DNA of 64,000 bases from Patescibacteria group bacterium (GCA_016861205.1 BOKX01000001.1:328539-392538), one strand, 5' to 3'. Shown: positions 4,780 to 24,653, counted from the stretch's first letter. Numbers and translations are program-made. Notes: generated from the sequence alone by a model not told the origin.

Positions 4780-4812
4780 ATTATACGTCAGATAGCTTGT
4801 TTGAGCAATTTC
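4780..4812 (-). promoter_or_regulatory. Sigma70-like promoter for the T-box leader/ileS operon. It overlaps the 3' end of the 316-aa gene.
   Basis: Minus strand: TTGCTC (-35, 4807..4812), a 17-nt spacer, then TATAAT (perfect -10, 4780..4785). Confidence 0.5.
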
Positions 4813-7073: not shown

Positions 7074-7168
7074 ATCGCATCCTTACCATTGGGCGGCTAT
7101 CTGGTGCTAGTCCAAAGTGTATCATACTTTGCCCGCTGATGGTGAGTGCCAAATCAGCAGCGCATTAT

Positions 7169-8479: not shown

Positions 8480-8560
8480 AGTATGGATACCTTACAGCAT
8501 AGCAAACTATCTTCACTACTGTCGAGTATTGCGACTGGCGCATTTATCCAGTCAACTACT

Positions 8561-9304
8561 CTAGTTTGATGTAGTTCTTACTACTGGCAGCTTGTAACGA
8601 ACATCAAACTCCATCACTCCACTCGGTAACTGTTCCAAATCCCTGGCCTGTAACAGAAGCTCTAACCGTTGGACTTGTAACTTTGGCTGATCACTATCGA
8701 TAACACCTCGGCCACCAGATTCTAGGTGAACAATGACTAAGTTATCGTTCATTAACTCTAAGCCTTTGAGTGGAATTTGGCTTTGCTCCAAGGCGGAGAC
8801 CAGCTCCCATAGAAAAGTGTGCAAACTTGGTTTAACTGCGTCACTAGCAATCACTGAACCCAAATCTTGTTGCGTTACAACTATCGGAGCTGTTAAAGCA
8901 CCATTCCACACCATCGGAAAAACTCGACCTTGTTGATTAACAACCCAACCCTCACTTGCACCTGTTTGCGAAATTCCATACGCAATTGATTTGATTTCGG
9001 CATGTAGTCGCAAGGTGCTCGGCAACTCTCTTGTCAACCCAACTACAGAGAAACCTCCGGCTCCCAACTCAGAACGCAAGTTTTCAACGTTCTTGGGCCA
9101 GAGTAACCACTGTCCCTTATGTCCTTTTGCGATGTCTAAGGCCGCCGGTGGACATGGTTGTTGATCGACCCGACAAATGATTGTTTCGATTCGAAACGTG
9201 CTCACCCAGCCCAAAGCAATGATGGCTGGGAGCAACCACCAGACTTGCCTCACCCCCAGGAGGAGTTTTGACCCCGATGAACCATCTGTAGGCAGTTTGG
9301 ACAT
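8561..9304 (-). CDS. ftsQ: FtsQ/DivIB-like cell division protein (single N-terminal TM + POTRA-like periplasmic domain)
   Basis: 247 aa, N-terminal TM (WWLLPAIIALGWV). Position between murG and ftsA. Sequence conservation is weak, as is usual for FtsQ. Confidence 0.55.
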   Translation of the reverse strand: MSKLPTDGSSGSKLLLGVRQVWWLLPAIIALGWVSTFRIETIICRVDQQPCPPAALDIAKGHKGQWLLWPKNVENLRSELGAGGFSVVGLTRELPSTLRLHAEIKSIAYGISQTGASEGWVVNQQGRVFPMVWNGALTAPIVVTQQDLGSVIASDAVKPSLHTFLWELVSALEQSQIPLKGLELMNDNLVIVHLESGGRGVIDSDQPKLQVQRLELLLQARDLEQLPSGVMEFDVRYKLPVVRTTSN

Positions 9305-9308
9305 ACCC

Positions 9309-10427
9309 TTATCGGCTGGCTTTGGCTACCACTTCATACAAAGCTTTTGCAGCATCTTTGGTTTTGGGAACCTGGGCTAAACTAGCCAGGTAATTAGCTC
9401 GATGATTTTTAACATAGTGGAGTGCGGCAACTAACGCAGCAGCGGTGACCTGCTTTTGGGGAATGACGTATGTACCACCTACCCCAGCCAACCACTCGGC
9501 GTTTCGCTGTTGCTCATTACCATGTGAGAACGGTAAAGGAATAACCACACTGGGAAGTTCGAAAGTAATAAGTTCTGCCAAGGTGTTTGCACCTGCTCTG
9601 GCCACTACTACTTGGGCATTTTGGTAAATCCATGCCAAATCTGGCTCTGAAAACCATTCCGAAACAAAGTAGGCACCTTGTTGTGCAGCCGGTAACTTCG
9701 CTTTACTTCTCTCCAGTTGCTTTCGATAGTTCGTCGTCGCGGATTTGTTCCCGCACTGATGAATTACTAGCCACATTTTGGTGAGCGCCGGTAGCGACTG
9801 TTCAATCAGGGTGTTAATAACTTGCGAGCCTTGATTACCACCGGTGACGTACAAAATTGGCTTCCGGGTAGTACTTGGTAGCCAGTTGGGTCGACTCGGT
9901 TTGGGCGTGAATAAAACTGGACGCAAAGGATTACCGGTCACCACGACTTTCCGACCAGGCAGATCTCCGGTCGTGTCTGAAAATGACACTGCTACCGTCG
10001 TTGCGACCTTACTGATGAGCTTAGTGGCTGTGCCAACTACTCTGGTTTGCTCATGTGTCACAATCGGAACTCTCAGCAACCAAGCCGCCAAAGCTAAAGG
10101 CACTGCTAAGTACCCGCCAAACGACACATAAACCGTTGGCCGGTGTCGCAGGCAAATGTATAGAGCCTTCAGCCATGACCACGCAAACTGAAGTGGGAAG
10201 AGCAAAATCCATAAGCCTAGACCACTTTGCCACCGGGGTGCCCAGAACTCTACAAATGTTAAACCTCGGTTGGTGATTTCCTGATACTCATGCGCCAGCT
10301 GTTTGGTTTGGTCTTGTGAGTAGCGACGACCAGCGAACACCAACTCATCGGCCGTAGATTGTGACCGAATGTAGTCGCACAGTGCTAAAGCTGGGGTCAA
10401 GTGACCACCGGATAATAATATCTTCAT
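9309..10427 (-). CDS. murG: UDP-GlcNAc:lipid I N-acetylglucosaminyltransferase MurG (GT28)
   Basis: MKILLSGGHLTPALAL N-terminus, GGNQGS motif, 372 aa, dcw context. Confidence 0.85.
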   Translation of the reverse strand: MKILLSGGHLTPALALCDYIRSQSTADELVFAGRRYSQDQTKQLAHEYQEITNRGLTFVEFWAPRWQSGLGLWILLFPLQFAWSWLKALYICLRHRPTVYVSFGGYLAVPLALAAWLLRVPIVTHEQTRVVGTATKLISKVATTVAVSFSDTTGDLPGRKVVVTGNPLRPVLFTPKPSRPNWLPSTTRKPILYVTGGNQGSQVINTLIEQSLPALTKMWLVIHQCGNKSATTNYRKQLERSKAKLPAAQQGAYFVSEWFSEPDLAWIYQNAQVVVARAGANTLAELITFELPSVVIPLPFSHGNEQQRNAEWLAGVGGTYVIPQKQVTAAALVAALHYVKNHRANYLASLAQVPKTKDAAKALYEVVAKASR

Positions 10428-10438
10428 AGTTCACACTT

Positions 10439-11533
10439 CTATTTTTTGCTCGGTTTGGCAGACTTCGTTGCCGGTAGTGTTTGACGCCTGATAGCGATCA
10501 GGATACCTGTGGCCAACAATACCATGACTAGCGATGATCCTCCATACGAAAAAAATGGCAACGGCACACCAGTCAGGGGAACCAACGCGACGACCGCAGC
10601 CAAGTTGAGAACTGTTTGAAACGCAATCCATAACAATAGACCGACGGCCAACAGGTACTCAAAACTACCTGGTTCTGTCCCTTTAATGATTCGAACGCCA
10701 GTTGCTAAGTACAATCCGAACAGACTTATTAACGCCAATGATCCAATAAAACCAACCTCTTCGGCAATGATGGCAAAGATTGAGTCGGTACTGGCTTCAG
10801 GTATGTATGCATATTTTTGTCGGGAGTTGCCCAGCCCCTGACCAAACCAGTGACCATTTCCCAATGCTAAGGTAATTTGCCGAATGTGAAAGCCTGCTCC
10901 CAGTGGGTCACTCTCAGGATTCAAATAGGTGGTCACCCGAGCTAAGCGGTATGGCGAAGCAATAATGGCTAAACTAACGAGTACCAAGCCAGCGGCCACG
11001 ATCCCCATTATGTACTTGAGTTGTCCGCCAGCCACAAAGTAGAGAGCGAACGAGATGCCAACGAGCACCAACAGAGAGCCCAAGTCTGGCTGTAAAATCA
11101 CAAGGGCAGCCGGTACCCCGGTTAAAAAGAGCCATGGCAGTACGCGACGATGTTGAGTCAGCCAGGTAGCAAAAAACATAATGAGGGATAGCTTCATAAA
11201 CTCAACAGGTTGAAATACTGCTCCCCCGAGTGATATCCAGCGTCGTGCGCCATTGAGATCTAAACCTATCCCTGGCACAAATACTGCCAGTAGCAGTACG
11301 ACGCTCAAGCCAAACGCAATGGGACTAATCGTTCGCCACCATTTCAAGGGAACTTGAGTAGCAATCGCCAGAGCCACTACTCCAATACCCGCCCGGACCA
11401 CTTGTTGTTTGAGAAAAAAATAAGGATCTCCAACCATGTTGAAGGCTTCCGCCACCGACGCCTCAAACACAAACACCAGCCCGACGATCACGAGTAAAGC
11501 AGTAATACCAAGAAAACGCCAAGTGAGTGACAT
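10439..11533 (-). CDS. ftsW: SEDS family lipid II polymerase FtsW
   Basis: 10 TM. Motifs IPEASTDSIFA, FSYGGSSLV and PLTGVPLPF are conserved in FtsW/RodA; dcw context between mraY and murG. Confidence 0.85.
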   Translation of the reverse strand: MSLTWRFLGITALLVIVGLVFVFEASVAEAFNMVGDPYFFLKQQVVRAGIGVVALAIATQVPLKWWRTISPIAFGLSVVLLLAVFVPGIGLDLNGARRWISLGGAVFQPVEFMKLSLIMFFATWLTQHRRVLPWLFLTGVPAALVILQPDLGSLLVLVGISFALYFVAGGQLKYIMGIVAAGLVLVSLAIIASPYRLARVTTYLNPESDPLGAGFHIRQITLALGNGHWFGQGLGNSRQKYAYIPEASTDSIFAIIAEEVGFIGSLALISLFGLYLATGVRIIKGTEPGSFEYLLAVGLLLWIAFQTVLNLAAVVALVPLTGVPLPFFSYGGSSLVMVLLATGILIAIRRQTLPATKSAKPSKK

Positions 11534-11552
11534 AGAATGTCCTGCTGTTGCC

Positions 11553-12596
11553 CTAGATCATGGCTAGCCACACTCCAAAAAGGGTGAGCATCACCTGCAC
11601 TAGCCAGGCTCGTTGAACAATTTTGGGCTCTTCCCAACCGTACTGCTGTAGGAATAAATGAAACGGAGCCGCCGGCATAATTTTTTTGCCACGGAATCGC
11701 TTCGACATCAGTTGAATAAATGAACTACCAATTTCAAACACAAAGATAAAACCAATCACCACTAGGGCGATCACTTTCCCCAGCAATAAACCTACTACGG
11801 CCAACGTGGCTCCAAACGCTAATGCGCCAACATCTCCCATAAACATCCGCGCTGGGTACACATTAAAGTACAAAAACGAGACGAGTGACCCAATCCAAAG
11901 CGCCAAAAAGAGTGAAAGGGGTACATCCAAAATTGAAGCTGACAAAAACCACAAACCAAACAGTGAAATCATCAGCGTTCCTGAAGCCAAACCATCCAAG
12001 CCATCGGTGATGTTAACCGCATTTGCAAATGCAACGATAACAAAAGTGGCAAACGGCACATACAACCAACCCAAATGGAAGGTACCAATGAATGGAATAT
12101 GGACAAACGAAATGCCTAAGTCTAAATGGAGAAGCAAGGCAATTCCGAAAGCGAGCAGGATCTGAAGCACTAGTTTGTGTTTAAGCCTCAAACCAAAAAA
12201 AGCTTCTTTCTCAAACCGAAAAAATTTCTTGACATCATCATACAAACCCAACAAACCAAACGACAAAAAAGTCAAAAAGATAACGTTGATCTCGGCTTGT
12301 GCATCTTTGTACACCCCGGTCACTTCCACTCCAAAAATCCTAAACAGCGGCAGCAAGAGTGCAAAAATGAGTGACACCACAATAATCACCAATAAACCGC
12401 CCCCGACAGGCACACCAGCTTTTTGCCGATGAAACTTGTCAAAAATCGGTGTCAACATGCCAAATGCGTCGCGGGTTTTTTGCTCGGCTCGTTGGAAACG
12501 AAGGGCGTAAAGAGTGTTAATAAACGGCACAATCAGGACACTCGTTACAATGAACGAAAACAACAATACACCCAAAACTAAGGCTAGTGATCCCAT
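11553..12596 (-). CDS. mraY: Phospho-N-acetylmuramoyl-pentapeptide transferase MraY
   Basis: NAVNITDGLDGLA and MGDVGALAFG motifs; 10 TM. Confidence 0.9.
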   Translation of the reverse strand: MGSLALVLGVLLFSFIVTSVLIVPFINTLYALRFQRAEQKTRDAFGMLTPIFDKFHRQKAGVPVGGGLLVIIVVSLIFALLLPLFRIFGVEVTGVYKDAQAEINVIFLTFLSFGLLGLYDDVKKFFRFEKEAFFGLRLKHKLVLQILLAFGIALLLHLDLGISFVHIPFIGTFHLGWLYVPFATFVIVAFANAVNITDGLDGLASGTLMISLFGLWFLSASILDVPLSLFLALWIGSLVSFLYFNVYPARMFMGDVGALAFGATLAVVGLLLGKVIALVVIGFIFVFEIGSSFIQLMSKRFRGKKIMPAAPFHLFLQQYGWEEPKIVQRAWLVQVMLTLFGVWLAMI

Positions 12597-12603
12597 ACGT
12601 CCT

Positions 12604-13929
12604 TTACGTTTCTCGCCGATCGATGGTGGCTCCCATCACTCGGAACTGCTGATCCAACTCTTCATAGCCTCGGTCAATCTGATGGCTGGGATCGTGCAGT
12701 ATGGTTTGACCTGATGCAATCATACCAGCAATCATCAAGGTCGCACCATGACGTAAATCTTTCACTTCAAACTCACCTGGCTTTAAAGCTGCAGGACCAG
12801 TAATCGCAATAGCGTGCGGAGCTGCTAGTGCTTCTGGTGTCAGATTAAAGTTGTACACCGACTCTGGATTATCAACCTTCATATCTAAGTACTCAATTTT
12901 CGCCCCCATTGCTTGGAGTGAAGGGACATACCCGAAACGCTTTTCGTAGATGGTCTCGTGGAGTTGACTGGTTCCAGTTGCTTGTGTCATCAACGTGACC
13001 CACAGTGGCTGCCAGTCCGTCATAAAACCAGGATGCGGTAGGGTTGTAACCTGAGTAGCTTGGAGTGGTTCTTGGTAGTAAAACCGAATACCATACTGAC
13101 CAACTTCGTACCCAGCCTTTGCTTCGCTCAAAGCGTCCAAAAATGCTGTTAAATCTTTAGCTCGAGCGTCCTCCACAATGACATCACCTTTGGTGGCCAA
13201 AGCGGCACAAGCGAAACTAACCACTTGGTTGCGATCAGGCATAATTTTGAACACCACACCGTGTAAACTCTGCACGCCTTTGATGACAATGGTGCGCGGC
13301 TCCACCCGCTTGATGTCAGCACCCATTTGGTTTAAGTAGCTTATTAATTCATCAACTTCAGTTTCCTGAGCGGCATTCTCAAGCGTGGTAGTGCCCTCGG
13401 CTAAAACGGAAGCCATCAAAAGTGTTTCAGTGCCGGTGTGCGAATTTTTTGCAAATCGATAGGTTGTGCCAATGAGCTTCTCAGCAACTACCTCAATCAT
13501 GTCTCCGTCTTGTGAGACTTTGGCACCAAGTGCTGTTAAACCTTCAAAGTGACGTTCGAGTGACCGCTTGCCAATTTTGTCACCGCCTGGGAACGGGACT
13601 CGAGCTCGACCAAATTTGTGCAATAAAATTGGGATGAACATGGTTGATGCTCGCGATGCTTCACCGTGCTCAGCCGAGATTTCACTCTTACTGAGATTTT
13701 TGGGATCAATCATGTAAGCACGCTCACCCACTTGTTGTGCTTGACCACCTAAGTTTCGGATCAGCTGAGCAACTAACTCAACATCACTAATTTTGCTAAA
13801 GTTCAACAACCGTGACGGGGTACTTGCCAACAAGGCCGAGATCATCAACTTGTATGATGCGTTTTTGGCACCACCTACTCGGACTGAACCATACAAGGGT
13901 GTACCACCGGTGATCACATATGTTGGCAT
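12604..13929 (-). CDS. murA: UDP-N-acetylglucosamine 1-carboxyvinyltransferase MurA
   Basis: 441 aa. VRVGGAKNA motif near the N-terminus; EPSP-synthase-like fold length. Confidence 0.85.
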   Translation of the reverse strand: MPTYVITGGTPLYGSVRVGGAKNASYKLMISALLASTPSRLLNFSKISDVELVAQLIRNLGGQAQQVGERAYMIDPKNLSKSEISAEHGEASRASTMFIPILLHKFGRARVPFPGGDKIGKRSLERHFEGLTALGAKVSQDGDMIEVVAEKLIGTTYRFAKNSHTGTETLLMASVLAEGTTTLENAAQETEVDELISYLNQMGADIKRVEPRTIVIKGVQSLHGVVFKIMPDRNQVVSFACAALATKGDVIVEDARAKDLTAFLDALSEAKAGYEVGQYGIRFYYQEPLQATQVTTLPHPGFMTDWQPLWVTLMTQATGTSQLHETIYEKRFGYVPSLQAMGAKIEYLDMKVDNPESVYNFNLTPEALAAPHAIAITGPAALKPGEFEVKDLRHGATLMIAGMIASGQTILHDPSHQIDRGYEELDQQFRVMGATIDRRET

Positions 13930-13938
13930 AAAAATCCT

Positions 13939-16338
13939 CTAGCCCAAGTAAAAGACTTCCTCCTGCAACTCGACTTGGAATCGCTCTTTGACTCTCGCTT
14001 TTACCAGAGCAATTAGTTCTTTAACTTGAGCCGCAGTACCACCGCCTTTATTGATCATAAAGGCTGCATGTTTATGACTGACTTCAATTGGACCACAGTG
14101 TTCACCTTTCAGTCCAGCTTGATCAATCAGGAAACCACCTGAGATATGTTCTCGATCAACAAACTGAGGAAAAAGTTTTTTGAGCTCAGGGGTGTTCGGG
14201 ACGTTTTGAAAAATACAACCTGAGCTGGGTTCTCCTAATGGCTGGGTTGTGGCTCGATATTGAGTCGCCTTTTTAACTAACTCAGCTGAGGTCTGTGGAT
14301 CACCAGGTGGCAATGCAAACTCTACTGCCACAACCACTTCACCGCTTGTCTGGAAACGAGAGTGATCGTACGCAAAGTCACATTCGGACTGATCGAGCCA
14401 AGTTAGTTGAAATTGTTTATCAAGAACTTGTACTCGGTGGATGTGACTACCAATCAAATCAGCTAAATAATGCGCGTTGTTCACAACCGCGCCACCCAAC
14501 GTGCCTGGCACTCCCAAAAAGTACTCTAACCCCGCCAGCTTCCAATCAATCGCCTGTCGGACCAGCAAACCCATTCGGGTACCGGCACCGGCTCGGATCA
14601 CCCGTTTCTCGTCAACATAGGTATCAGTCAGCTCCACACCAGAGTTGGCCAGGCGGATAACTATGCCACGAATCCCTTCATCAGCTACGATGACATTGCT
14701 TGCCCCGCCCAACATGGTAATCGGTATCCCGCGGCGCTGGCTCCACGCCCAGATTTGACCAAGTTGTTCGGCCTGTGTTATTTCGGCCAATACGTCAGCT
14801 GGGCCACCGATCTTAAAGTACGTCACACTGGCCATTGGCACTGAAAAACGCCACTCTATATCAGGGAAAACCTCAGCCAATTCCTTTGCCCACTCAGTTG
14901 GATAGAGCTGGTCATGGATTTGGTAAATGTCCCCAGCACCAACTGTCAGCACCACATCGCCTGCCGCTAGTTGGGTTCGACAAAAAGCAACAACCGCTGC
15001 ATTCGTTTTTAGGTTTTCTACCTTGGACTGTGGGTAGCGCTCCCGAATCGCCTGACATAGTGTGTCACTGCTGATTGTGTCATCAAACTGCTCCCGGGCT
15101 GATGGGAAAATGTCTGTCATAACCACTTGGTCAGCTTGCTCAAATGCTGTCACGAACTCATCAAACAAGGCTTTCGTTCGTGAAAAGGTGTGACTTTGAA
15201 AAGCCACGACCAGTTTCTGATCTGGAAACCACTCTTTGTACGCTTTGATGACTTCAGCAACTTCGTGCGGATGATGTGCATAGTCATCATAGTAACGAAC
15301 CCCGGCTTTTTCACCCTTGAACTCGGCTCGCCGCTGCGTGGATCGAAATGTGGCTAAGGCATCGACGATGTCTGAAATGCTCAGCCCTAGTTGGTGGCAT
15401 GCTGCGACGGCGGCAACTGCATTCATCATGTTGTACTTACCAGGCAACTGCAGTCTCAGAGGATAGTTTTGACCTTGATACGTCAGCATACCGGCACTGA
15501 CACCTCGGATCACTTGATACTGTGTTAACTCAAACACCGCATTTGATCCTTGCCCGTAGTAAACGATCTGAGCTTTAAGCTGTGGCTCTCGCCGAAGCAT
15601 CATTTCAATATGTGGCCGGTCATCACTGTTGACGACTAAAAGTCCGTCAGTTGGCAGTTGCGCAAAAAATGTTTGAAAAACTTCCAGTGTGTGGTCAAAA
15701 TCTCGATAGACATCTGGATGGTCGAAACGCAAGTTGGTACACACCGTGAGATGTGGCTTAAGGAAGGAAAACCGTGGGGTGATCGCTTCTTGCCGGCTGG
15801 GGGCAGCGGGATCTACAACGTACTCATCAGCCTCGGCCACGAAATAGGGACTGTCACTCGACCATTGACCAGACTTGTTTAACCCAATAATATTTCCGAC
15901 CCCAATCGCAAAACTGGGTTTTTTGCCTACTTTCTCTAACACCCACGCAATCATGGCACTCGTGGTTGATTTGCCCCCCACACCACAAACAGCGATGCCA
16001 TGTTTGGCATTAAATAGTTGTCCCAAAGCTTCAGCGTGGGACCACGTTGGTAAACCTTGGTGTTGAGCTTGTTTGACTAATGGATTTGCTGGTCCTTGAT
16101 GTGCGGCTGTGTACACCACCGCTTCAATATCACTCGGCAAAACTTGTTCAAAACCTGTGTCTATCACCACTCCCAATCGGTTTAACATCGGTTGGGTAAC
16201 GAACTCTTCAGCCACGTCACAACCTCTGACTTGAATGCCAGCTTCAGCGAGACACTGTGCCAGGGCAGTCATAGCTACCCCTTTAATACCAATCAAATAG
16301 ACCGATTTGGCTGTTAGTAGTTCCATAGACCGCTGCAC
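13939..16338 (-). CDS. murC-murB: Bifunctional fusion: UDP-N-acetylmuramate--L-alanine ligase (MurC) + UDP-N-acetylenolpyruvoylglucosamine reductase (MurB)
   Basis: 799 aa. N-terminal half: GIKGVAMTALAQ Rossmann motif, CGVGGKSTTSAM Mur-ligase P-loop, DDYAHHPHEV (MurC motif). C-terminal ~300 aa: FKIGGPADVLAEI...LGGASNVIVADEG (MurB FAD-binding domain). Confidence 0.85.
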   Translation of the reverse strand: MQRSMELLTAKSVYLIGIKGVAMTALAQCLAEAGIQVRGCDVAEEFVTQPMLNRLGVVIDTGFEQVLPSDIEAVVYTAAHQGPANPLVKQAQHQGLPTWSHAEALGQLFNAKHGIAVCGVGGKSTTSAMIAWVLEKVGKKPSFAIGVGNIIGLNKSGQWSSDSPYFVAEADEYVVDPAAPSRQEAITPRFSFLKPHLTVCTNLRFDHPDVYRDFDHTLEVFQTFFAQLPTDGLLVVNSDDRPHIEMMLRREPQLKAQIVYYGQGSNAVFELTQYQVIRGVSAGMLTYQGQNYPLRLQLPGKYNMMNAVAAVAACHQLGLSISDIVDALATFRSTQRRAEFKGEKAGVRYYDDYAHHPHEVAEVIKAYKEWFPDQKLVVAFQSHTFSRTKALFDEFVTAFEQADQVVMTDIFPSAREQFDDTISSDTLCQAIRERYPQSKVENLKTNAAVVAFCRTQLAAGDVVLTVGAGDIYQIHDQLYPTEWAKELAEVFPDIEWRFSVPMASVTYFKIGGPADVLAEITQAEQLGQIWAWSQRRGIPITMLGGASNVIVADEGIRGIVIRLANSGVELTDTYVDEKRVIRAGAGTRMGLLVRQAIDWKLAGLEYFLGVPGTLGGAVVNNAHYLADLIGSHIHRVQVLDKQFQLTWLDQSECDFAYDHSRFQTSGEVVVAVEFALPPGDPQTSAELVKKATQYRATTQPLGEPSSGCIFQNVPNTPELKKLFPQFVDREHISGGFLIDQAGLKGEHCGPIEVSHKHAAFMINKGGGTAAQVKELIALVKARVKERFQVELQEEVFYLG

Positions 16339-16343
16339 CTGCT

Positions 16344-17336
16344 TTACTTGGCTTTCAAAATTCGTGCCAGTACCTGCTCAACTTTCTGGGTATCGTGGCG
16401 CAACAACGACCGATGAGCAGTATCGTACGCCACTTTGGCTACCAATTCATCACTAATCAGTGGGGTGCGAATCACTCGGGGATCATCGCCGAGATCATCC
16501 TCAACCGGGAACTCACCTTCATGAGCATAAACTTCCAGTGTCTCTGGTGGAATTGGCTGGTTGTTGACCACAACAATGTCCACTTTTTGACCGATTGATT
16601 TCTCGATACCGGCTAAGTGTTCACTAGCGGTCATGTCTGGGGTCTGAGTCAAACGCGTCATCAGGTTCATCATGTACACAACTTTACCTGCTGAGCTGTT
16701 GACAGCTTTGCCTAAACCTTTAGCAACTAGAACGGCTTGAACACTAGCGTAGTAATCTCCTGGGCCGATCACAATCAAGTCAGCTTCTTTAATATCGTGT
16801 GCTGCACTCGGGTTGATTGGGGCAGATGGCACGAGTGATACATGGGTAACTCTGCGTGGCTGCGTCGGTGTTTCATCTAAAATGTGCTCACCAATCTGGA
16901 CAGTACCATCGGCGTAATGAATCTCCAAGTTCACCAAGTCTTGCGTCACAGGAATCACAGAGCCGTCGATCCGGAACACTTTTTCAGCGATTTCCAAAGC
17001 ACGTGTCGTGTCGCCGGTCATGTCCTGTAAAGCGGTCAAAATTAAGTTACCCAAATTGTGCCCTTTGAGACCTTCACCTTTAGCGAAACGATACAGCAAA
17101 ATTCGCTTAATCCACTCTTGGCCTTCACTCTCAGCCATGGCCGCAAGTGATTGGCGGAGGTCACCCACCGGTTGAAAACCAAATTCATCACGAATCCGGC
17201 CAGTCGACCCACCTGAGTCAGAAACACAAACCACTGTTGAAACTGAAGCGTTGAGGCGTTTCAGGGCGGTAATTACTGGGAACGTACCTGTTCCACCACC
17301 CATTACTACTGCTTTGGTTTGGGTTGCCATAGCCAC
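16344..17336 (-). CDS. yvcK: YvcK/CofD-family (UPF0052) protein, gluconeogenesis-factor/GlmR-like
   Basis: VVMGGGTGTFPVITALK...VVCVSDSGGSTGRIRDEFGFQPVGDLRQ matches the YvcK/CofD signature (GGGTG...DDGGSSGRLR). Confidence 0.75.
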   Translation of the reverse strand: MAMATQTKAVVMGGGTGTFPVITALKRLNASVSTVVCVSDSGGSTGRIRDEFGFQPVGDLRQSLAAMAESEGQEWIKRILLYRFAKGEGLKGHNLGNLILTALQDMTGDTTRALEIAEKVFRIDGSVIPVTQDLVNLEIHYADGTVQIGEHILDETPTQPRRVTHVSLVPSAPINPSAAHDIKEADLIVIGPGDYYASVQAVLVAKGLGKAVNSSAGKVVYMMNLMTRLTQTPDMTASEHLAGIEKSIGQKVDIVVVNNQPIPPETLEVYAHEGEFPVEDDLGDDPRVIRTPLISDELVAKVAYDTAHRSLLRHDTQKVEQVLARILKAK

Positions 17337-17339
17337 TTT

Positions 17340-18563
17340 CTATTTAGTTGCTACTAAGGCTGTGTCCACAGCCACTCGGTCACTCCAAGGATACTCCTGA
17401 TGACCATAGGCCATACTCTGTTCGTGGCCCTTGCCTAGGATCGCAATCGTATCACCTTTTTTGGCCAAAGTCCGAATCGCGAAGGTAATCGCTTCTTGAC
17501 GATCTGCGATAGAAACAACGTTCCGGTGTTGAGCACTTAGATCAGACTTCATTTGTCGAATAATAGACCAGATGTCTTCGGTCCGAGGATCCTCAGCCGT
17601 AAAAACCGCTACATCAGCAATTTCCGCACCATACCGGCCCATTTTTGGTCGCTTTTGCGTGTCACGAAGACCGGCGCACCCAAAAACCGCAATCAATTTT
17701 TGGCCGGTTTTTAGTTCCTGTTTGAGCGTAGTTAAGACAGCTTTAACAGCTTGAGGTGTATGGGCAAAATCTATCACGATCTTCAAACCACGCCGGTTGG
17801 TAACAGTCTCCATTCGACCTGGCACACCTCGAAACTGTTCGAGCGCTTGAATGAGGGCCTTGTTCGGCAAACCGAGTTCATCAGCTATTGTAGCCACCAA
17901 ACTAGCGTTGCGTTGGTTGTAGTCCTGCGTGAATCGCTCTTTGATGGCAGCGCGCACGCTTCGGGGCAGTTCAGCAGGGGTGGTATAGGTACGCAGGTGT
18001 TGGTTGTGACCGATGTATTTTTTGAGCTTTCCAAAAGACTCGTCATCAGCATTGAGCACGACCGTCTTAGCCTGCTTGAGCAGTAATGCTTTGGCAGCCA
18101 CATACTTTTCGTACGTTAAGTGATAATCGAGATGCTCATAGTTGATGTTCGTTACCCCCACAACTAAAGGTTTGATACCCCAGGTTCGATACTGATACAC
18201 CCCGTGTGAAGTAGCCTCCAGTACTAAGTATTCATAGCCTTCATCAACCAACTGACGCATGAAACCATAGAGTTGTTCTGGCTCTGGTGATGTGACATGA
18301 AAACCCGTATCAACTGCAGTATCGCCGGCATAGGCAGCTACCGTTGACACCAGTCCGACTTTCAAACCTGCGGCTTTCAAGGTCTCGTAGAGTAATGTTG
18401 ACGAAGTCGTTTTGCCGTCAGTCCCGGTTATAGCCAGAATTTTGAGGTGTCTTTCGGGGAACCGGTAGCGCCACTGGGCGCGAGCACCTTGCAGCAAGCC
18501 TGTTTTAAAAAAATGATACGGACGTTTGAGATAGTAGATCGAGGTGGCCACGATAGAGCTCAT
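17340..18563 (-). CDS. Mur ligase family protein, MurE-like but lacking most of the N-terminal UDP-binding domain
   Basis: 407 aa. The P-loop ITGTDGKTTSS is already at residue ~45 (MurC/D/E/F have it at ~110). C-terminal EDPR resembles the MurE DNPR motif. Its position after ftsI is where murE usually sits. Confidence 0.6.
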   Translation of the reverse strand: MSSIVATSIYYLKRPYHFFKTGLLQGARAQWRYRFPERHLKILAITGTDGKTTSSTLLYETLKAAGLKVGLVSTVAAYAGDTAVDTGFHVTSPEPEQLYGFMRQLVDEGYEYLVLEATSHGVYQYRTWGIKPLVVGVTNINYEHLDYHLTYEKYVAAKALLLKQAKTVVLNADDESFGKLKKYIGHNQHLRTYTTPAELPRSVRAAIKERFTQDYNQRNASLVATIADELGLPNKALIQALEQFRGVPGRMETVTNRRGLKIVIDFAHTPQAVKAVLTTLKQELKTGQKLIAVFGCAGLRDTQKRPKMGRYGAEIADVAVFTAEDPRTEDIWSIIRQMKSDLSAQHRNVVSIADRQEAITFAIRTLAKKGDTIAILGKGHEQSMAYGHQEYPWSDRVAVDTALVATK

Positions 18564-18583
18564 AGCAATCCATTATAGCGCAC

Positions 18584-20359
18584 CTAATTCTTATCTGGTG
18601 GCATTTCAAGCATCAGAAATAATTTTTCGGCTAGTTGGTACCATAGGGGTGCGGCTGTCTCGGCTGCCCAGACAGAACTGGTGGGTTCAGTTAACTTGAC
18701 CAGCATAATGAACTTAGGGTTTTCTGGTGGGGCGAAACCAATAAAACTGGCCACAGTTTTGGTCTCATCGTACGTACCATCTATCGCAATTTGAGACGTG
18801 CCTGTTTTAGCCGCCACCCGATGTGTTTTAGCAGCCGTCCATTTTGCCTCGCCTGAGGCTGCGGCGACTTCCATCATTTGCGTGACGAGCTGAGCAGTCT
18901 CTGGTCTGATCGCCACTTGCTCGACGATTGGCTGAGCCACAAGTTCTTCACCAGTGACAGGATCCTCAACTTTTTCCACAATCATTGGTCGCATTACCAC
19001 CCCATGATTGGCAATAGCGTTGATAGCTTTAACCAACTGAAGGCTCGTCGTACTTATTCCTTGCCCAAATGAAATCGTAGCTAACTCGACAGGCCCCCAT
19101 TTGCTTGGGAATGGTGGTGACGAGTCCTCTTGCCAGTCAGCGTATGTCCGCTCACCAACTCCAAACTTACGTAAATAGTCTTTAAACAAATCAGCCCCGA
19201 GTAAGTCAGTCACAAAAATCATGGCTGTATTATCTGATTTGGCCAGTGCTTCAGTCATAGTGATATTCGGGTGGTACTCATTGTTCCAGGTTTTGATACT
19301 GTACTTGCCGATCTGACGGGGGCCATCGCAAACTGGGCAAGGTGTATCAGGCTTAATGACACCCGCATCGATACCAGCCGCCACCGTAAGAGTTTTAAAG
19401 GTAGAACCAGGTTCATAAGCGTCACTTACACTTGGTAACTTGTACACTTCACCAGGAAACTCGTTAAAGTACGTAGGATCATAATTAGGATACGTGGCCA
19501 AGGCCAAAATTTTACCCGTGGCAGGCTCCATAATAATGATTTCACCTGCTTTGGCCCCATAACGCTCAATACCGCGATATAACATCTGAACTGCCAATCG
19601 CTGAATGTCCCGGCGGATCGTCAGAACCACATTCCGACCTGCCGGACGATCGGTCACAGCACTTTGACCCCAAAGATGAAAACCTAAAGCATCCTTTTCC
19701 ACAATTCGTTTGCTCGAGCGAGACTGGAGTTCTTTGTCGAGTGCCCCTTCAATTCCAAAGTAGCCGGTCGGTTGATCAGCATCATTGCGCCCCACAAAAC
19801 CAGTAATGTGTGCTGCAAGCGACGCTTCAGGGTAAAAACGAACTTCGCCAGGTTCAAACCCCAAGCCAGCAATATCCAGCTGAGCCAGTTGGGCCCTAGT
19901 ATCAGCAGACAAACCTGGCATCAGTGACACCCACTTGCTGTCACTCTTGCCCAAACGAGCCAGGAGCTGGTTCTTGAGTGTTTCAGCAATCACTTGCCGG
20001 TCCGCCGATTCTGTAGCTTGCTGATACTCACGCCAGTTGGCCAGCAACACTGGCAAAACTTGTTCAGTGATTTCTTGTGGTGACTTTTCAAGCAACTGTG
20101 GTTGAGCAAATAAACGATATACGGTTTGGTTCCCAACCAACAAACTACCATCTGATGTGAAAATTTGTCCACGTGATCCTGAAATCGTTTGCGTGCGCTG
20201 GTACTGATCTTGCGCTTGAGCTTGGAGGGCTGTGCCCTTAATAATCTGCCAGTAAAATAACCGGGTAACAATCAAGCCTAGGCACACATAAACACTAATC
20301 CAAACGATCCGAAGTCGTCGCGTGTGAACGTGTGGTTCAAGTGAAGTGGTTTCTGACAT
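18584..20359 (-). CDS. ftsI: Class B penicillin-binding protein (transpeptidase) FtsI/PBP
   Basis: N-terminal TM; SxxK (EPGSTFK), SxN (KSDNTA), KTG (KTGTSQ). Confidence 0.9.
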   Translation of the reverse strand: MSETTSLEPHVHTRRLRIVWISVYVCLGLIVTRLFYWQIIKGTALQAQAQDQYQRTQTISGSRGQIFTSDGSLLVGNQTVYRLFAQPQLLEKSPQEITEQVLPVLLANWREYQQATESADRQVIAETLKNQLLARLGKSDSKWVSLMPGLSADTRAQLAQLDIAGLGFEPGEVRFYPEASLAAHITGFVGRNDADQPTGYFGIEGALDKELQSRSSKRIVEKDALGFHLWGQSAVTDRPAGRNVVLTIRRDIQRLAVQMLYRGIERYGAKAGEIIIMEPATGKILALATYPNYDPTYFNEFPGEVYKLPSVSDAYEPGSTFKTLTVAAGIDAGVIKPDTPCPVCDGPRQIGKYSIKTWNNEYHPNITMTEALAKSDNTAMIFVTDLLGADLFKDYLRKFGVGERTYADWQEDSSPPFPSKWGPVELATISFGQGISTTSLQLVKAINAIANHGVVMRPMIVEKVEDPVTGEELVAQPIVEQVAIRPETAQLVTQMMEVAAASGEAKWTAAKTHRVAAKTGTSQIAIDGTYDETKTVASFIGFAPPENPKFIMLVKLTEPTSSVWAAETAAPLWYQLAEKLFLMLEMPPDKN

Positions 20360-20646
20360 TACCGAACAGCAACAGTGGTGTTCAGTTTGACTATAAGAGG
20401 TTTCGTAATTGATTCATAGCCTGAGTCTTGAGCAGGTACCACAGCGGCCAACGCTGTTTTCTCTGCCAATTCAAGGCCAAGTTCTTGACGCTTAGCAGCT
20501 AGAACTCGATAATCGTGCTCCAGCTTGCTCAGCTTTTGAGCTTGAAACAAAAATAAACTCCCTTGATAGAGTGTGAAGGCCACCGCAGTGACCACCACCA
20601 CTCCTAAGCAGGAGTAAAAAGTGACGATGTTAAAACGTTGTTTCAT
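20359..20646 (-). CDS. ftsL: FtsL-like small bitopic cell-division protein
   Basis: 95 aa, one TM followed by a short coiled-coil (KLSKLEHDYRVLAAKRQELGLELAEK). Canonical position between rsmH and ftsI; start overlaps the ftsI stop. Confidence 0.6.
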   Translation of the reverse strand: MKQRFNIVTFYSCLGVVVVTAVAFTLYQGSLFLFQAQKLSKLEHDYRVLAAKRQELGLELAEKTALAAVVPAQDSGYESITKPLIVKLNTTVAVR

Positions 20647-21542
20647 ACTTCAAAAATGCGCAGCTTGGCGCTTCTAGATCGAGAGTTAACAGCTAGTTCT
20701 CGATCACCGGCCGTGACCGGATGCTTGGTTATGACTTTGCCTTTACCTTGACGTTCCCAGGTGTTAAACATTTGTTTAACCACTCGGTCTTCACCCTCAT
20801 GGAAAGCGATCGTGACAACTCGGGCAGGTGTTGTCAGAATCTCGAGGGCTTGTGGTAAAGCGCTGCGAATTGCGGTTAACTCATCATTCACGGCAATTCG
20901 CAAAGCTTGGAAAACTTTCGTGGCTGGGTGCAAGTGACCTCGTGGCTCTCGCTTCGTAGCCATAATGACTGCGACCAAGCCACTTACAGAATCGAGCTGA
21001 GTCATGTCGCCAGTCTGGCGAATCTCAACAATAGCGCGAGCAATTTTACGAGCCTCTCGTTCGCCACCATACTCAAAGAAAACTTGACTCAACTGTTTCT
21101 CACTCAGCAACTTGAGCAAGTCTTTGGCTTTTACTCCCAGTCGATCATCCATCCGCATGTCTAAGTCCCCGTCGCCAGCGAAGCTAAATCCGCGTTCCGC
21201 TGACATGAGTTGTTCGGTGCTGGTCCCAAAGTCAAATAAAGCACCTCTGATGTCACCAACTTGGCCAGAATCACGCAGAGTAGATACCACTTTGGCCAGG
21301 CGTTCAAAGTTTTCTCGAACGAGAATCAGTCGATTTTGGGCCAGCTCTGCGGCAAACGTGGTTTGACCATACTCAATCGCACCTTGATCGACATCGAGAG
21401 CAATAACTTTCGCCTGACGTGCCAAGATAGCTTGCGTATGTCCCCCGCGGCCAAATGTGCCATCGAGATACCACTCGCCAGCTTGCGGTTGTAAACCCGA
21501 GATGGCTTCATCAAGTAGGACTGGTATATGTTTACTCGTCAT
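20643..21542 (-). CDS. rsmH: 16S rRNA (cytosine1402-N4)-methyltransferase RsmH/MraW
   Basis: HIPVLLDEAISGL...YLDGTFGRGGHTQAIL N-terminus is diagnostic of RsmH. Confidence 0.9.
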   Translation of the reverse strand: MTSKHIPVLLDEAISGLQPQAGEWYLDGTFGRGGHTQAILARQAKVIALDVDQGAIEYGQTTFAAELAQNRLILVRENFERLAKVVSTLRDSGQVGDIRGALFDFGTSTEQLMSAERGFSFAGDGDLDMRMDDRLGVKAKDLLKLLSEKQLSQVFFEYGGEREARKIARAIVEIRQTGDMTQLDSVSGLVAVIMATKREPRGHLHPATKVFQALRIAVNDELTAIRSALPQALEILTTPARVVTIAFHEGEDRVVKQMFNTWERQGKGKVITKHPVTAGDRELAVNSRSRSAKLRIFEV

Positions 21543-21966
21543 AGGTTGGTGCCACTAATCGTTCTGCAATGGCTTCGGCTTGATCTTCAAGAGTGTCTCG
21601 ATACTGGTGATACTTGGTGACATCCCAAATTTCGATCCAGCGATAACTACCTAAAATCACGATGTCTTTACTCAAACCGGCAAAATCGATCAAGTACTCA
21701 GGCAGTTGCACTCGACCATTGTTGTCCACCGAAATTTGGCTGGCCTCATTCGTCATTAAACGAATGAAGTCTCGATTCATTTTTTTTGTCAAAGAGCGCT
21801 CTTCGAGCTCCTGCAAGTGCTGACCAAACTGACTCTCTCGAAACACAAACAATCCGCCGTCTAATCCTCTGGTCACAATCCAGTTGGTCTCTTGCTCTCG
21901 AAACTTTTTGGGGAGTGAAACTCTGCCTTTGGCTTCGAGATGGTGATAGAAAGTGCCGATAAACAT
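21532..21966 (-). CDS. mraZ: Transcriptional regulator MraZ. I moved the start to the MFIGTF... ATG at 21966; the ORF-track 10-codon extension overlaps the operator repeats.
   Basis: MFIGTFYHHLEAKGRVSLPKKFRE matches the MraZ N-terminus (MFxG....D.KGR...P); two DUF-MraZ repeats fit in ~145 aa. Confidence 0.85.
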   Translation of the reverse strand: MFIGTFYHHLEAKGRVSLPKKFREQETNWIVTRGLDGGLFVFRESQFGQHLQELEERSLTKKMNRDFIRLMTNEASQISVDNNGRVQLPEYLIDFAGLSKDIVILGSYRWIEIWDVTKYHQYRDTLEDQAEAIAERLVAPTYDE

Positions 21967-21977
21967 TTTATAAGATA

Positions 21978-22008
21978 ATTTACCACTTTTTACCACTCAA
22001 TTACATAC
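21978..22008 (-). promoter_or_regulatory. Candidate MraZ operator: 10-bp-phased direct repeats GTGGTAAA
   Basis: Minus strand: TGAGTGGTAAAAAGTGGTAAATT. Two perfect GTGGTAAA repeats lie exactly 10 bp apart, with a degenerate third (TATGTAAT) one more helical turn upstream. All are within 12-40 nt of the mraZ ATG. Confidence 0.5.
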
Positions 22009-22116: not shown

Positions 22117-22145
22117 AAAAAGCCCCCCGCCAACGGCGAGGGGCT
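22112..22145 (-). terminator. Rho-independent terminator ending the upstream co-directional gene array and insulating the dcw promoter
   Basis: Minus-strand RNA GCCCCUCGCC-GUU-GGCGGGGGGC forms a 10-bp GC-rich stem (one G.U pair), followed by UUUUUUU. Confidence 0.75.
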
Positions 22146-24403: not shown

Positions 24404-24597
24404 GCTGACCTTTCCGCTGTTTGGAGAAACAAAAACCGTCTCTCCACAGCACTTCAAGTATGAACTACTGTAGAGGGACGGTTCAAGACGAATCGCGGTT
24501 CCACCCTCTTTAGTGCATCATGTTTATCCAGTTAACGCACTCACTTTTGGGTTGATCTGTGACTCAGTGGCTGCCAACCACTTCATCATCAACAGAC
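24404..24597 (-). promoter_or_regulatory. Glycine-specific T-box riboswitch leader of glyQS
   Basis: Minus strand contains AAAGAGGGUGGAACCGCG, a 14/18 match to the T-box consensus AAUUAGGGUGGNACCGCG. The UGGA bulge matches the tRNA-Gly discriminator U73. An upstream stem I has GGC followed by A in the loop (GUGG-UUGGCAGC-CACU). The leader ends in a 14-bp terminator followed by UUUUUGUUU. Upstream promoter TTGTGT-17-TATACT (-10 at 24605..24610). Confidence 0.8.
24425..24481 (-). terminator. T-box expression-platform terminator (attenuator) of glyQS
   Basis: Minus-strand arms CCGUCCCUCUACAG / CUGUGGAGAGACGG: 13 of 14 pairs including one G.U, followed by a U-run, 20 nt before the glyQS ATG. Confidence 0.7.
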
Positions 24598-24653
24598 TGG
24601 CGACAGTATAATCTATGCGTCACCTAAACACAAGTCAGCTACCACCATTTGAG

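What the first reader, a model, noticed from the sequence alone, without database searches (positions are those of the whole stretch)
16344..21966. Non-canonical dcw cluster: murD, murF and ddl absent, a Mur ligase missing its N-terminal domain, and a YvcK/GlmR-like gene embedded
The cluster runs mraZ-rsmH-ftsL-ftsI-[Mur ligase]-[yvcK-like]-murCB-murA-mraY-ftsW-murG-ftsQ-ftsA-ftsZ. The only stand-alone Mur ligase (407 aa) has its P-loop at residue ~45, so it lacks most of the UDP-MurNAc-binding domain 1, yet it keeps a MurE-like DNPR-type motif (EDPR). YvcK/GlmR family proteins bind UDP-GlcNAc and regulate its supply; placing one beside murA and murCB suggests a precursor-control role. murA being inside the dcw cluster is also unusual.
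Basis: partly seen in the sequence, partly recalled or inferred. Interest (0 to 1): 0.55.

Follow-up and report, generated by a model that had tools for sequence, protein, structure and literature searches.

The report
Microgenomatia cell-wall operon, truncated MurE
This is the usual cell-division and cell-wall operon of one class of ultra-small (CPR) bacteria, in which the third peptide-adding enzyme, MurE, has lost its nucleotide-binding front domain and a UDP-sugar-binding YvcK/GlmR gene sits inside the operon; the supposedly absent genes lie elsewhere in at least some relatives.

Summary
On the minus strand, 5769-21996 reads mraZ-rsmH-ftsL-ftsI-[407-aa Mur ligase]-[YvcK/GlmR]-murC::murB-murA-mraY-ftsW-murG-ftsQ-like-ftsA-ftsZ. 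No murD, murF or ddl lies anywhere in the 64 kb.

The ligase is MurE without domain 1. It passes the MurE model cut-off from model position 72 onward. A single long helix stands where the UDP-binding domain would be.

This is not peculiar to this genome. Forty-six distinct loci from Microgenomatia (Candidate Phyla Radiation) carry the same short MurE, and 39 of the 40 with ftsI in view have it directly after ftsI. It is therefore the lineage's MurE ortholog, not a spare paralog. YvcK lies inside 20 of those clusters.

"Absent" means absent from the cluster. Cluster composition varies across the class. Sister lineages keep murD between mraY and ftsW. A relative with this exact arrangement has a divergent, also truncated, MurF-like gene about 8.5 kb upstream of mraZ. 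Ddl sits beside murF in others.

For this genome (a 1,149,156-bp contig) I could not locate murD, murF or ddl. No off-cluster murD was seen in its sub-clade, so real loss of murD is not excluded.

Verdict: a new variant of a known kind, of moderate interest.

The parts
21532..21996 (-). mraZ, the first gene of the operon. The likely true start is the ATG at 21966, which gives 144 aa as in relatives.
   Evidence: Pfam MraZ 92.8 bits. Relatives are 140-144 aa.
22121..22145 (-). Strong intrinsic-terminator-like hairpin (11-bp stem, 9 G-C pairs, T-run). It closes the upstream gene and marks the 5' boundary of the dcw transcription unit.
   Evidence: Only a consensus match; function is inferred.
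20643..21542 (-). rsmH (mraW), 16S rRNA methyltransferase.
   Evidence: PF01795 271 bits.
20359..20646 (-). ftsL-like small membrane protein, assigned by position only.
   Evidence: No Pfam hit. An ORF of 86-115 aa sits in the same slot in relatives.
18584..20359 (-). ftsI, a class B penicillin-binding protein. The transpeptidase motifs STFK, SDN and KTG are present.
   Evidence: PBP_dimer plus Transpeptidase domains. Motifs read from the sequence.
17340..18563 (-). Short MurE, 407 aa. An N-terminal helix (residues 2-32) is followed by the central ATP-binding domain and the C-terminal domain. The UDP-binding domain 1 is absent.
   Evidence: TIGR01085 scores 322.9 bits against a cut-off of 257.3, matching model positions 72-471. 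The PDB alignment starts at Mtb MurE residue 128 and T. maritima MurE residue 87. The AlphaFold2 model has pLDDT 92.4. Foldseek top hits are MurE, TM about 0.8. Top 120 listed homologs are 399-441 aa with the M and C domains only; 7,980 candidates reach E<=1e-10.
16344..17336 (-). YvcK/GlmR-family (CofD-fold) protein, 328-330 aa.
   Evidence: TIGR01826 scores 258.7 bits against 196. E=8e-48 to B. halodurans YvcK, PDB 2HZB. Family motifs are conserved in 25 Microgenomatia orthologs.
13939..16338 (-). murC::murB fusion. The MurC ligase part keeps its N-terminal domain and is joined to UDP-N-acetylenolpyruvoylglucosamine reductase.
   Evidence: TIGR01082 matches residues 13-478 at 363.6 bits against 335.1. 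MurB NF010480 matches residues 493-799. Five Pfam domains are found. Fused in 6 loci and separate in the others.
12604..13929 (-). murA.
   Evidence: TIGR01072 scores 400.7 bits against 392.7.
11553..12596 (-). mraY. It is followed after 19 nt by ftsW, so there is no murD in the usual slot.
   Evidence: Glycos_transf_4. Coordinates.
10439..11533 (-). ftsW (SEDS family).
   Evidence: PF01098 324 bits.
9309..10427 (-). murG.
   Evidence: Glyco_transf_28 N- and C-terminal domains.
8561..9304 (-). ftsQ-like, assigned by position only.
   Evidence: No Pfam or NCBIfam hit. Weakly conserved ORFs of 230-261 aa sit in the same slot in relatives.
7169..8479 (-). ftsA.
   Evidence: SHS2_FTSA plus FtsA domains.
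5769..7073 (-). ftsZ, the last gene of the cluster.
   Evidence: Tubulin plus FtsZ_C domains.
24458..24653 (.). 196-bp recO|glyS spacer. In relatives L011 and L088/L176 a MurF-like ligase gene sits between recO and glyS. Here the slot is empty.
   Evidence: tblastn finds no remnant.

Best explanation
The window comes from a Microgenomatia (Patescibacteria/CPR) genome. It carries that class's normal dcw operon, probably one transcription unit from mraZ to ftsZ.

The 407-aa ligase is the lineage's orthologous MurE. In the ancestor of this class it lost the roughly 90-residue UDP-binding domain 1. It keeps the ATP site, the lysine that aligns with the carbamylated lysine of M. tuberculosis MurE (K158), and an Arg-containing [ED]DPR motif. 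That motif suggests a diaminopimelate-type substrate.

Most likely it still adds the third residue to UDP-MurNAc-L-Ala-D-Glu. Substrate recognition would rest on domains 2 and 3, with help from a conserved N-terminal helix that carries an aromatic-His motif conserved in nearly all short MurEs. This step is inferred.

The YvcK/GlmR protein is a true family member recruited into the operon. It most likely binds UDP-GlcNAc, and may make it or regulate its supply, thereby feeding MurA and MurG. This step is inferred from homology and recurrent synteny.

murC and murB are fused, which is a known kind of chimera.

murD, murF and ddl are missing from the cluster because cluster membership varies within this class. 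murF, in a divergent and also domain-1-less form, is off-cluster in this sub-clade. murD and ddl are probably elsewhere in the 1.15-Mb genome. That last point is not shown.
For: Identity of the ligase:
- It passes the MurE model cut-off from model position 72 onward.
- Sequence and fold both match solved MurE structures, with domain 1 missing.
- K158 aligns with Mtb K262, and D325, P326 and R327 are invariant in 29 homologs.

Clade-wide trait:
- 46 distinct loci have the P-loop before residue 70 and no hit to a domain-1 HMM. All 41 Chloroflexota MurEs and 3 other long MurEs do hit it.
- 39 of the 40 loci with ftsI in view have the short MurE directly after ftsI.
- The N-terminal motif [KR]N-x-[YFW]-H ... 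Y-x-F-P is conserved across the short MurEs whose N-terminus is complete.

Same arrangement elsewhere: L001 (a 1.41-Mb contig), L006, L008-L011 and L176.

Variable cluster membership:
- mraY-murD-ftsW occurs in L013, L016, L090, L147, L156, L170 and L177.
- In-cluster MurF that also lacks domain 1 occurs in L017, L022 and L024.
- The Daviesbacteria cluster L024 shows no murA, murB, murC or murD in the stretch held (a weak 195-aa MurB-like ORF aside).
- Ddl lies next to murF in L028 and L047.

MurF off-cluster in this sub-clade:
- L011: MurF-like gene starts about 3.2 kb upstream of mraZ.
- L088 and L176 are one 227,128-bp contig. It has the identical cluster and the MurF-like gene about 8.5 kb upstream of mraZ.

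YvcK:
- It passes TIGR01826.
- Family motifs, including the C-terminal LRHD, are conserved.
- It is in 20 of 46 clusters, 11 times after murE and 9 times after murA.
- GlmR binds UDP-GlcNAc and has reported uridyltransferase activity (PMC7525490 abstract, as listed; PMC10128056).

MurC-MurB chimeras are a known class (PMC10214165).
Against: - No murD, murF or ddl was found in about 79 kb of this genome, that is the window plus two extensions.
- The syntenic recO|glyS slot that holds the MurF-like gene in relatives is empty here.
- Twenty MurF-like protein clusters were looked up, and none has a member on this genome's 1,149,156-bp contig.
- Every MurD context retrieved was mraY-murD-ftsW in other lineages.
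- No biochemical evidence exists for a MurE without domain 1.
- Two of the three residues mutated in the inactive Listeria GlmR triple mutant are not conserved here: D41 is Ser here, and the Asn I take to be N198 (mapped via the B. halodurans alignment) is Val. A uridyltransferase role is therefore uncertain.
Confidence: 0.6

Rival explanations
1. Truly reduced pathway. This sub-clade has lost murD, and this genome may also have lost murF and ddl. The stem peptide would then be built differently. One route is salvage of host-derived peptides or muropeptides. Another is that the domain-1-less MurE and MurF act on a substrate that is not UDP-linked, for example a lipid-linked one, as MurT does.
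For: - mraY and ftsW are adjacent in all seven members of the sub-clade seen, while sister lineages keep murD there.
- No off-cluster MurD was recovered.
- The MurF-like slot is empty in the window.
- Mur-superfamily enzymes that lack domain 1 (MurT, CapB, FolC) use substrates that are not UDP-linked. This rests on established knowledge.
- A 2026 review says complete peptidoglycan pathways are found only in some CPR bacteria (PMC13293708).
Against:
- ftsI keeps intact D,D-transpeptidase motifs, which need a D-Ala-D-Ala donor.
- MurC, MurE, MraY and MurG are all under strong conservation, and MurE keeps its catalytic residues.
- Relatives with the same cluster do have a MurF-like gene.
- Other Microgenomatia clusters lack murA, murB and murC, which must be elsewhere. 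Dispersal of these genes is therefore common.
Confidence: 0.15
2. The short ligase is not functionally MurE. It would be a neofunctionalised MurE-derived ligase for another acceptor, and the real MurE would be elsewhere.
For: - Domain 1 is missing.
- The equivalog-level MurE models are not reached: NF001126 scores 304.9 against 373.
- One locus labelled Woesebacteria (L026) has a full-length MurE.
Against: - It sits in the canonical murE slot after ftsI in 39 of 40 loci, with no other MurE in those loci.
- It passes the TIGR01085 cut-off.
- Its closest structures are all MurE.
- MurT, FolC, cyanophycin synthetase and the pseudomurein ligases all score far below their cut-offs.
Confidence: 0.1
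3. Artefact. The short ORF would result from a wrong start codon, a frameshift or a misassembly that cut off domain 1.
For: None found.
Against: - Only 20 nt separate it from the ftsI stop.
- The identical 407-aa product occurs on six independent contigs.
- The top 120 listed homologs are the same length (399-441 aa).
- The N-terminal helix is conserved and confidently modelled.
Confidence: 0.01

Closest known systems
MurE, UDP-MurNAc-L-Ala-D-Glu:meso-diaminopimelate ligase (E. coli 1E8C, M. tuberculosis 2WTZ, T. maritima 4BUB)
   Same: - Central ATP-binding and C-terminal domains, about 30% identity, TM about 0.8.
- P-loop present.
- A lysine aligned with the carbamylated lysine.
- An Arg-containing DNPR-type motif.
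- Genomic slot directly after ftsI.
   Different: The whole N-terminal UDP-binding domain, about 90 residues, is missing. A roughly 20-residue extension of the linker helix with a conserved aromatic-His motif takes its place. DNPR reads EDPR.
Mur-superfamily ligases that naturally lack domain 1: MurT (of MurT/GatD), CapB/PgsB, FolC and the C-terminal half of cyanophycin synthetase
   Same: Two-domain (M plus C) architecture with the P-loop near residue 45.
   Different: All score far below their family cut-offs: MurT 26.8 against 800, FolC 60.4 against 162.65, cyanophycin synthetase 100 against 850. The short ligase has no DUF1727, no zinc ribbon, and no GatD partner nearby. By sequence it is MurE.
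GlmR/YvcK (B. subtilis, L. monocytogenes) and CuvA (M. tuberculosis)
   Same: CofD fold. It passes TIGR01826. The motifs GGGTG, D-x-GGSTGR, GHNLGN, GPGD and the C-terminal LRHD are conserved.
   Different: - It is not in a yvcJ(rapZ)-glmR-whiA operon. It lies inside the dcw cluster, between murE and murC, or between murA and mraY in relatives.
- Listeria D41 is Ser here, and the residue aligned with the Asn taken to be Listeria N198 (mapped through the B. halodurans sequence) is Val.
MurC-MurB natural chimeras (about 11% of Mur chimeras, concentrated in Verrucomicrobia; PMC10214165)
   Same: A single polypeptide with a complete MurC and a complete MurB.
   Different: It occurs in a different phylum. 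Fusion is sporadic here: 6 of the loci examined are fused, and close relatives have separate genes.
Canonical and long 17-gene dcw clusters (PMC8871954)
   Same: The order mraZ-rsmH-ftsL-ftsI-murE ... mraY ... ftsW-murG ... ftsQ-ftsA-ftsZ, with murA and murB included.
   Different: murF, murD and ddl are missing. murC-murB-murA are moved ahead of mraY, and yvcK is inserted.

Membership tests
MurE (TIGR01085) | Family HMM score above the curated cut-off | tested here: met
   322.9 bits against 257.3, but only over model positions 72-471. The equivalog models are not reached: NF001126 scores 304.9 against 373.
MurE (TIGR01085) | Three-domain architecture with the N-terminal UDP-MurNAc-binding domain 1 | tested here: not met
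   No PF01225. No hit to a domain-1 HMM built from 30 full-length MurEs. PDB alignments start after domain 1. The model shows a single helix, residues 2-32.
MurE (TIGR01085) | ATP P-loop plus a lysine at the carbamylated-lysine position | tested here: met
   GTDGKT at residues 47-52. K158 aligns with Mtb K262. That Mtb K262 is carbamylated is from my own knowledge. Both are invariant in 29 homologs.
MurE (TIGR01085) | DNPR-type motif that selects the diamino acid | tested here: inconclusive
   EDPR at 324-327. D325, P326 and R327 are invariant. The Arg is kept, but Asn is replaced by Asp. Specificity cannot be read from sequence alone.
MurE (TIGR01085) | Catalyses addition of residue 3 to UDP-MurNAc-L-Ala-D-Glu | not testable with these tools
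   Needs an enzyme assay or complementation.
YvcK/GlmR (TIGR01826, CofD-related) | Family HMM above cut-off and CofD fold | tested here: met
   258.7 bits against 196. PF01933 scores 244.8 bits. E=8e-48 to PDB 2HZB.
YvcK/GlmR (TIGR01826, CofD-related) | yvcJ(rapZ)-glmR-whiA operon context | tested here: not met
   No RapZ or WhiA domain in any ORF scanned in the window. The gene lies between murE and murC::murB.
YvcK/GlmR (TIGR01826, CofD-related) | Residues implicated in Listeria GlmR uridyltransferase activity (D40, D41, N198; PMC10128056) | tested here: not met
   D40 is kept. D41 is Ser in most Microgenomatia orthologs. The residue aligned with the Asn is Val, Thr or Leu in this sub-clade. 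The N198 mapping is by alignment to the B. halodurans sequence and is therefore inferred.
YvcK/GlmR (TIGR01826, CofD-related) | UDP-GlcNAc-binding residues (B. subtilis Y265, R301) | tested here: inconclusive
   The C-terminal RS-x-LRHD motif is conserved in all 25 orthologs. Its equivalence to R301 is inferred, and Y265 was not mapped.
MurT, FolC, cyanophycin synthetase, pseudomurein ligases | Family HMM above cut-off | tested here: not met
   MurT 26.8 against 800. FolC 60.4 against 162.65. CphA 100 against 850. pMurC, pMurD and pMurE score 42-88 against 550-610.
MurC-MurB chimera | One ORF holding a complete MurC and a complete MurB | tested here: met
   TIGR01082 matches residues 13-478 and NF010480 matches residues 493-799. 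The same fused ORF is called on independent contigs.
Canonical dcw cluster | murF after murE, murD between mraY and ftsW, ddl before ftsQ | tested here: not met
   None of the three is in the cluster or in the 64-kb window.

The most novel reading that the evidence does not exclude
A heavily sampled Microgenomatia sub-clade has really lost MurD, and this genome has also lost the MurF-like gene from its syntenic site. It would make peptidoglycan by a non-canonical route, with domain-1-less MurE and MurF working on substrates that are not UDP-linked or are salvaged from the host. YvcK/GlmR might supply the UDP-sugar handling.
Probability: 0.12. Interest if true: 0.8.

Novelty: new variant of a known kind. 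Interest (0 to 1): 0.45.

Why it matters
Domain 1 of MurE and MurF is regarded as the UDP-binding module of these essential drug-target enzymes. A whole bacterial class that works without it is a natural experiment. It asks how much of substrate recognition depends on that domain, and it offers a minimal MurE for structural and enzymatic study.

GlmR/YvcK has a contested function, either GlmS activator or accessory uridyltransferase. Its repeated placement inside a peptidoglycan-precursor operon, next to MurA or MurE, is independent genomic evidence that it acts directly in precursor synthesis.

If murD proves to be truly absent from the sub-clade, that would point to an undescribed way of building or salvaging the stem peptide in episymbiotic CPR bacteria.

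Tried and rejected
1. Literature. Nine full-text searches found no paper that discusses domain-1-less MurE or missing murD/murF in Microgenomatia. The key dcw paper, Megrian et al. 2022, is not held.

- One true match was found, 227,128 bp, and confirmed.
- One match, 15,487 bp, was coincidental.
- The contig length shown in a homolog list belongs to the cluster representative only, so failure to match carries little weight.

3. Cluster-member look-ups for 20 MurF-like clusters. None has a member on this genome's 1,149,156-bp contig.

4. Metagenome scan with a MurD alignment. It was stopped at 600 pattern matches. All Microgenomatia-type hits were mraY-murD-ftsW. The stand-alone MurDs were only 33-37% identical to the seeds and were probably from other phyla.

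5. Extending the window by 5-10 kb on each side through contigs of the same population. No relevant genes were found.

6. The idea that YvcK replaces MurE domain 1 in trans. I rejected it as a general rule. 26 of 46 short-MurE loci show no YvcK, and L025 pairs YvcK with a full-length MurE.

7. A truncation artefact. Rejected.

8. A promoter scan inside the cluster found no more sites than chance would give.

Full report
**What is there.** All genes from 5769 to 21996 lie on the minus strand, separated by 3-20 nt gaps between ftsI and ftsQ. Profile searches give the following order:
- MraZ.
- RsmH.
- A 95-aa FtsL-like ORF.
- FtsI (PBP_dimer plus Transpeptidase domains).
- A 407-aa Mur ligase.
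- A YvcK-family protein.
- A 799-aa MurC::MurB fusion.
- MurA, MraY, FtsW and MurG.
- A 247-aa FtsQ-like ORF with no family hit.
- FtsA and FtsZ.

A strong terminator-like hairpin at 22121-22145 lies just upstream of mraZ. Inside the cluster, promoter- and terminator-like sites are no more frequent than chance. This fits a single operon.

Pfam scans of the larger ORFs outside the cluster (40 proteins scanned) found no MurD, MurF, Ddl or alanine racemase. tblastn of MurD, MurF, MurF-like, Ddl and PgeF seeds against the whole window hit only the murC part of the fusion and the short ligase.

**The ligase.**
- It scores 322.9 bits on TIGR01085 (MurE, cut-off 257.3), but only over model positions 72-471.
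- MurT, FolC, cyanophycin synthetase, MurD, MurF, MurC and the pseudomurein ligases all fall far below their cut-offs.
- Against solved structures it aligns with M. tuberculosis MurE from residue 128 and with T. maritima MurE from residue 87. Both points lie after domain 1.
- K158 aligns with Mtb K262. That K262 is the carbamylated lysine is from my own knowledge.
- An AlphaFold2 model (pLDDT 92.4) has one long helix, residues 2-32, followed by the central and C-terminal domains.
- Its best structural matches are all MurE, with TM about 0.8.
- Only 20 nt separate the gene from ftsI, and the same 407-aa product is called on six independent contigs. The truncation is real.

**It is a clade trait.**
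- The protein search gave 7,980 homologs. The best 120 are 399-441 aa long, have only the M and C domains, and where named are labelled Woesebacteria, Pacebacteria or Microgenomates, apart from one record labelled Vitreimonas.
- A scan of one genome per species returned 80 loci.
- Across all loci fetched, 46 distinct loci have the P-loop before residue 70 and no hit to a domain-1 HMM. These carry labels such as Davies-, Woese-, Gottesman-, Roizman-, Beckwith-, Levy- and Woykebacteria and CPR3.
- All 41 Chloroflexota MurEs and three other long MurEs do hit that HMM.
- 39 of the 40 short MurEs with ftsI in view lie directly after it.
- The N-terminal helix carries a motif, [KR]N-x-[YFW]-H ... 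Y-x-F-P, that is conserved across the short MurEs whose N-terminus is complete.

The short ligase is therefore the class's MurE ortholog, not a paralog of a full-length enzyme. MurF in several of these lineages is truncated in the same way, matching TIGR01143 only from model position 64. MurC and MurD keep their N-terminal domains.

**The "missing" genes.** The same order as in the window, ftsI-murE-yvcK-murC-murB-murA-mraY-ftsW-murG, occurs in L001 (a 1.41-Mb contig), L006, L008-L011 and L176.

Sister lineages differ:
- L013, L016, L090, L147, L156, L170 and L177 have murD between mraY and ftsW.
- The Daviesbacteria clusters have murE-murF-mraY-ftsW, and L024 shows no murA, murB, murC or murD in the stretch held, apart from a weak 195-aa MurB-like ORF.
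- Ddl lies next to murF in L028 and L047.
- Many lineages carry a PF02578 (PgeF/YlmD-type) gene where the window has yvcK.

Cluster membership is thus variable in this class.

In the window's own sub-clade there is a divergent MurF-like ligase of about 444 aa. It has the M and C domains only and scores 160-190 bits on TIGR01143, below the 288.6 cut-off. It lies off-cluster in three relatives:
- In L011, between recO and glyS, starting about 3.2 kb upstream of mraZ.
- In L088, in the same slot. L088 and L176 are the same 227,128-bp contig, which carries the identical cluster about 8.5 kb from the MurF-like gene.
- In L089, next to pbp2-mreDCB.

In the window, recO and glyS are adjacent, so that slot is empty.

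**What I could not settle.**
- The window's genome is a 1,149,156-bp NCBI contig.
- Extensions of 5-10 kb beyond each end showed no relevant gene.
- Twenty MurF-like clusters had no member on that contig.
- Every MurD context retrieved was in-cluster and from other lineages. None came from the sub-clade.

They do leave real loss of murD open. Against that reading, ftsI keeps its SxxK, SxN and KTG motifs. MurC, MurE, MraY and MurG are well conserved. Dispersal of mur genes is common in the class.

**YvcK.**
- The protein passes TIGR01826 (258.7 bits against 196) and matches B. halodurans YvcK at E=8e-48.
- Family motifs, including the C-terminal LRHD, are conserved in 25 Microgenomatia orthologs.
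- Of the three residues mutated in the inactive Listeria GlmR (D40, D41, N198; PMC10128056), only D40 is kept. A uridyltransferase role is uncertain, while UDP-sugar binding is plausible.
- The gene is found in 20 of 46 short-MurE clusters, 11 times after murE and 9 times after murA. It is never seen with rapZ or whiA.
- It does not track the loss of domain 1, so it is unlikely to be a stand-in for that domain.

Its recurrent placement beside MurA and MurE supports a direct role in supplying UDP-GlcNAc or the precursor.

**Comparison with what is known, and verdict.**
- MurC-MurB chimeras are a known class (PMC10214165).
- murA and murB belong to the long version of dcw clusters (PMC8871954).
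- Databases already name these short proteins MurE.
- I found no paper that notes the clade-wide loss of domain 1 in MurE and MurF, or the recruitment of YvcK into dcw clusters.

I rate the finding a new variant of a known kind, with moderate interest. The cluster is ordinary for its lineage. The lineage's way of making peptidoglycan precursors deviates structurally from the textbook, and the fate of murD in this sub-clade is worth a whole-genome check.

Noticed in passing
L017:11721-12941, L022:11701-12978, L024:11780-12976: MurF in Daviesbacteria-type clusters is also N-terminally truncated (398-425 aa). It matches TIGR01143 only from model position 64. Both MurE and MurF have therefore lost domain 1 in this class, while MurC and MurD keep theirs.
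   Followed up: partly
L011:2412-3746; L088:10001-11335; L089:10001-11332; L083:8587-9921: A divergent MurF-like ligase family of about 444 aa, with M and C domains only, scoring 160-190 bits on TIGR01143 (below cut-off). At least 593 homologs exist. Its position varies: recO-glyS, next to pbp2-mreDCB, or between ftsI and murE.
   Followed up: partly
L018:11196-11939, L013:11857-12537, and the same slot in 14 loci in all: A PF02578 (Cu-oxidase_4; PgeF/YlmD-type) gene of about 240 aa lies between murE and murC in many Microgenomatia clusters. The window has yvcK in that slot and no such gene.
   Followed up: partly
L018:18298-20557, L041:14666-16925, L177:3164-6105: A DegT-type aminotransferase and a FemAB-family gene follow murF in several Microgenomatia clusters. 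This hints at branched or cross-bridged stem peptides.
   Followed up: no
L018:16579-18294, L029:11388-12986, L085:19140-20591: These MurF homologs carry N-terminal extensions of 140-215 aa that do not match the MurF N-terminal domain.
   Followed up: no
window 3300-3947, 3969-4571, 4788-5738 (minus strand): Three ORFs without any family hit lie between ftsZ and ileS. The first two look like tandem paralogs and share a C-terminal EAAILQAYLG motif. They are also present on Logan contigs of the same population.
   Followed up: no
window 27600-63345, continuing in L174: A very large surface-glycan gene region. It holds more than 15 glycosyltransferases, Wzy_C, PMT_2, DUF4012, Bac_transf, DegT, hexapeptide transferases, an ABC-2 exporter pair, WavE and NTP transferases. 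It runs at least 10 kb beyond the window end.
   Followed up: no
L027-L087 (Chloroflexota loci): The nearest full-length relatives of the short MurE are the MurEs of Anaerolineae (Chloroflexota), at 37-42% identity. These stand alone, outside any dcw cluster.
   Followed up: partly
L012:10001-11215: A close relative (53% identity) has the short murE and murC as an isolated pair, away from ftsI and the rest of the cluster.
   Followed up: no
L010, L012, L014, L018, L029, L060 record titles; P0012: Several public MAG records that carry these Microgenomatia clusters are labelled Pseudomonadales, Gammaproteobacteria, Bathyarchaeia, Methanosarcinales or Vitreimonas. These are evidently taxonomic mislabels.
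   Followed up: no
L172:12837-13883 (just beyond the window's left end): A second SEDS gene (RodA-like, 348 aa) follows ileS. After it come L21, a UPF0020 methylase, L27 and parB.
   Followed up: no
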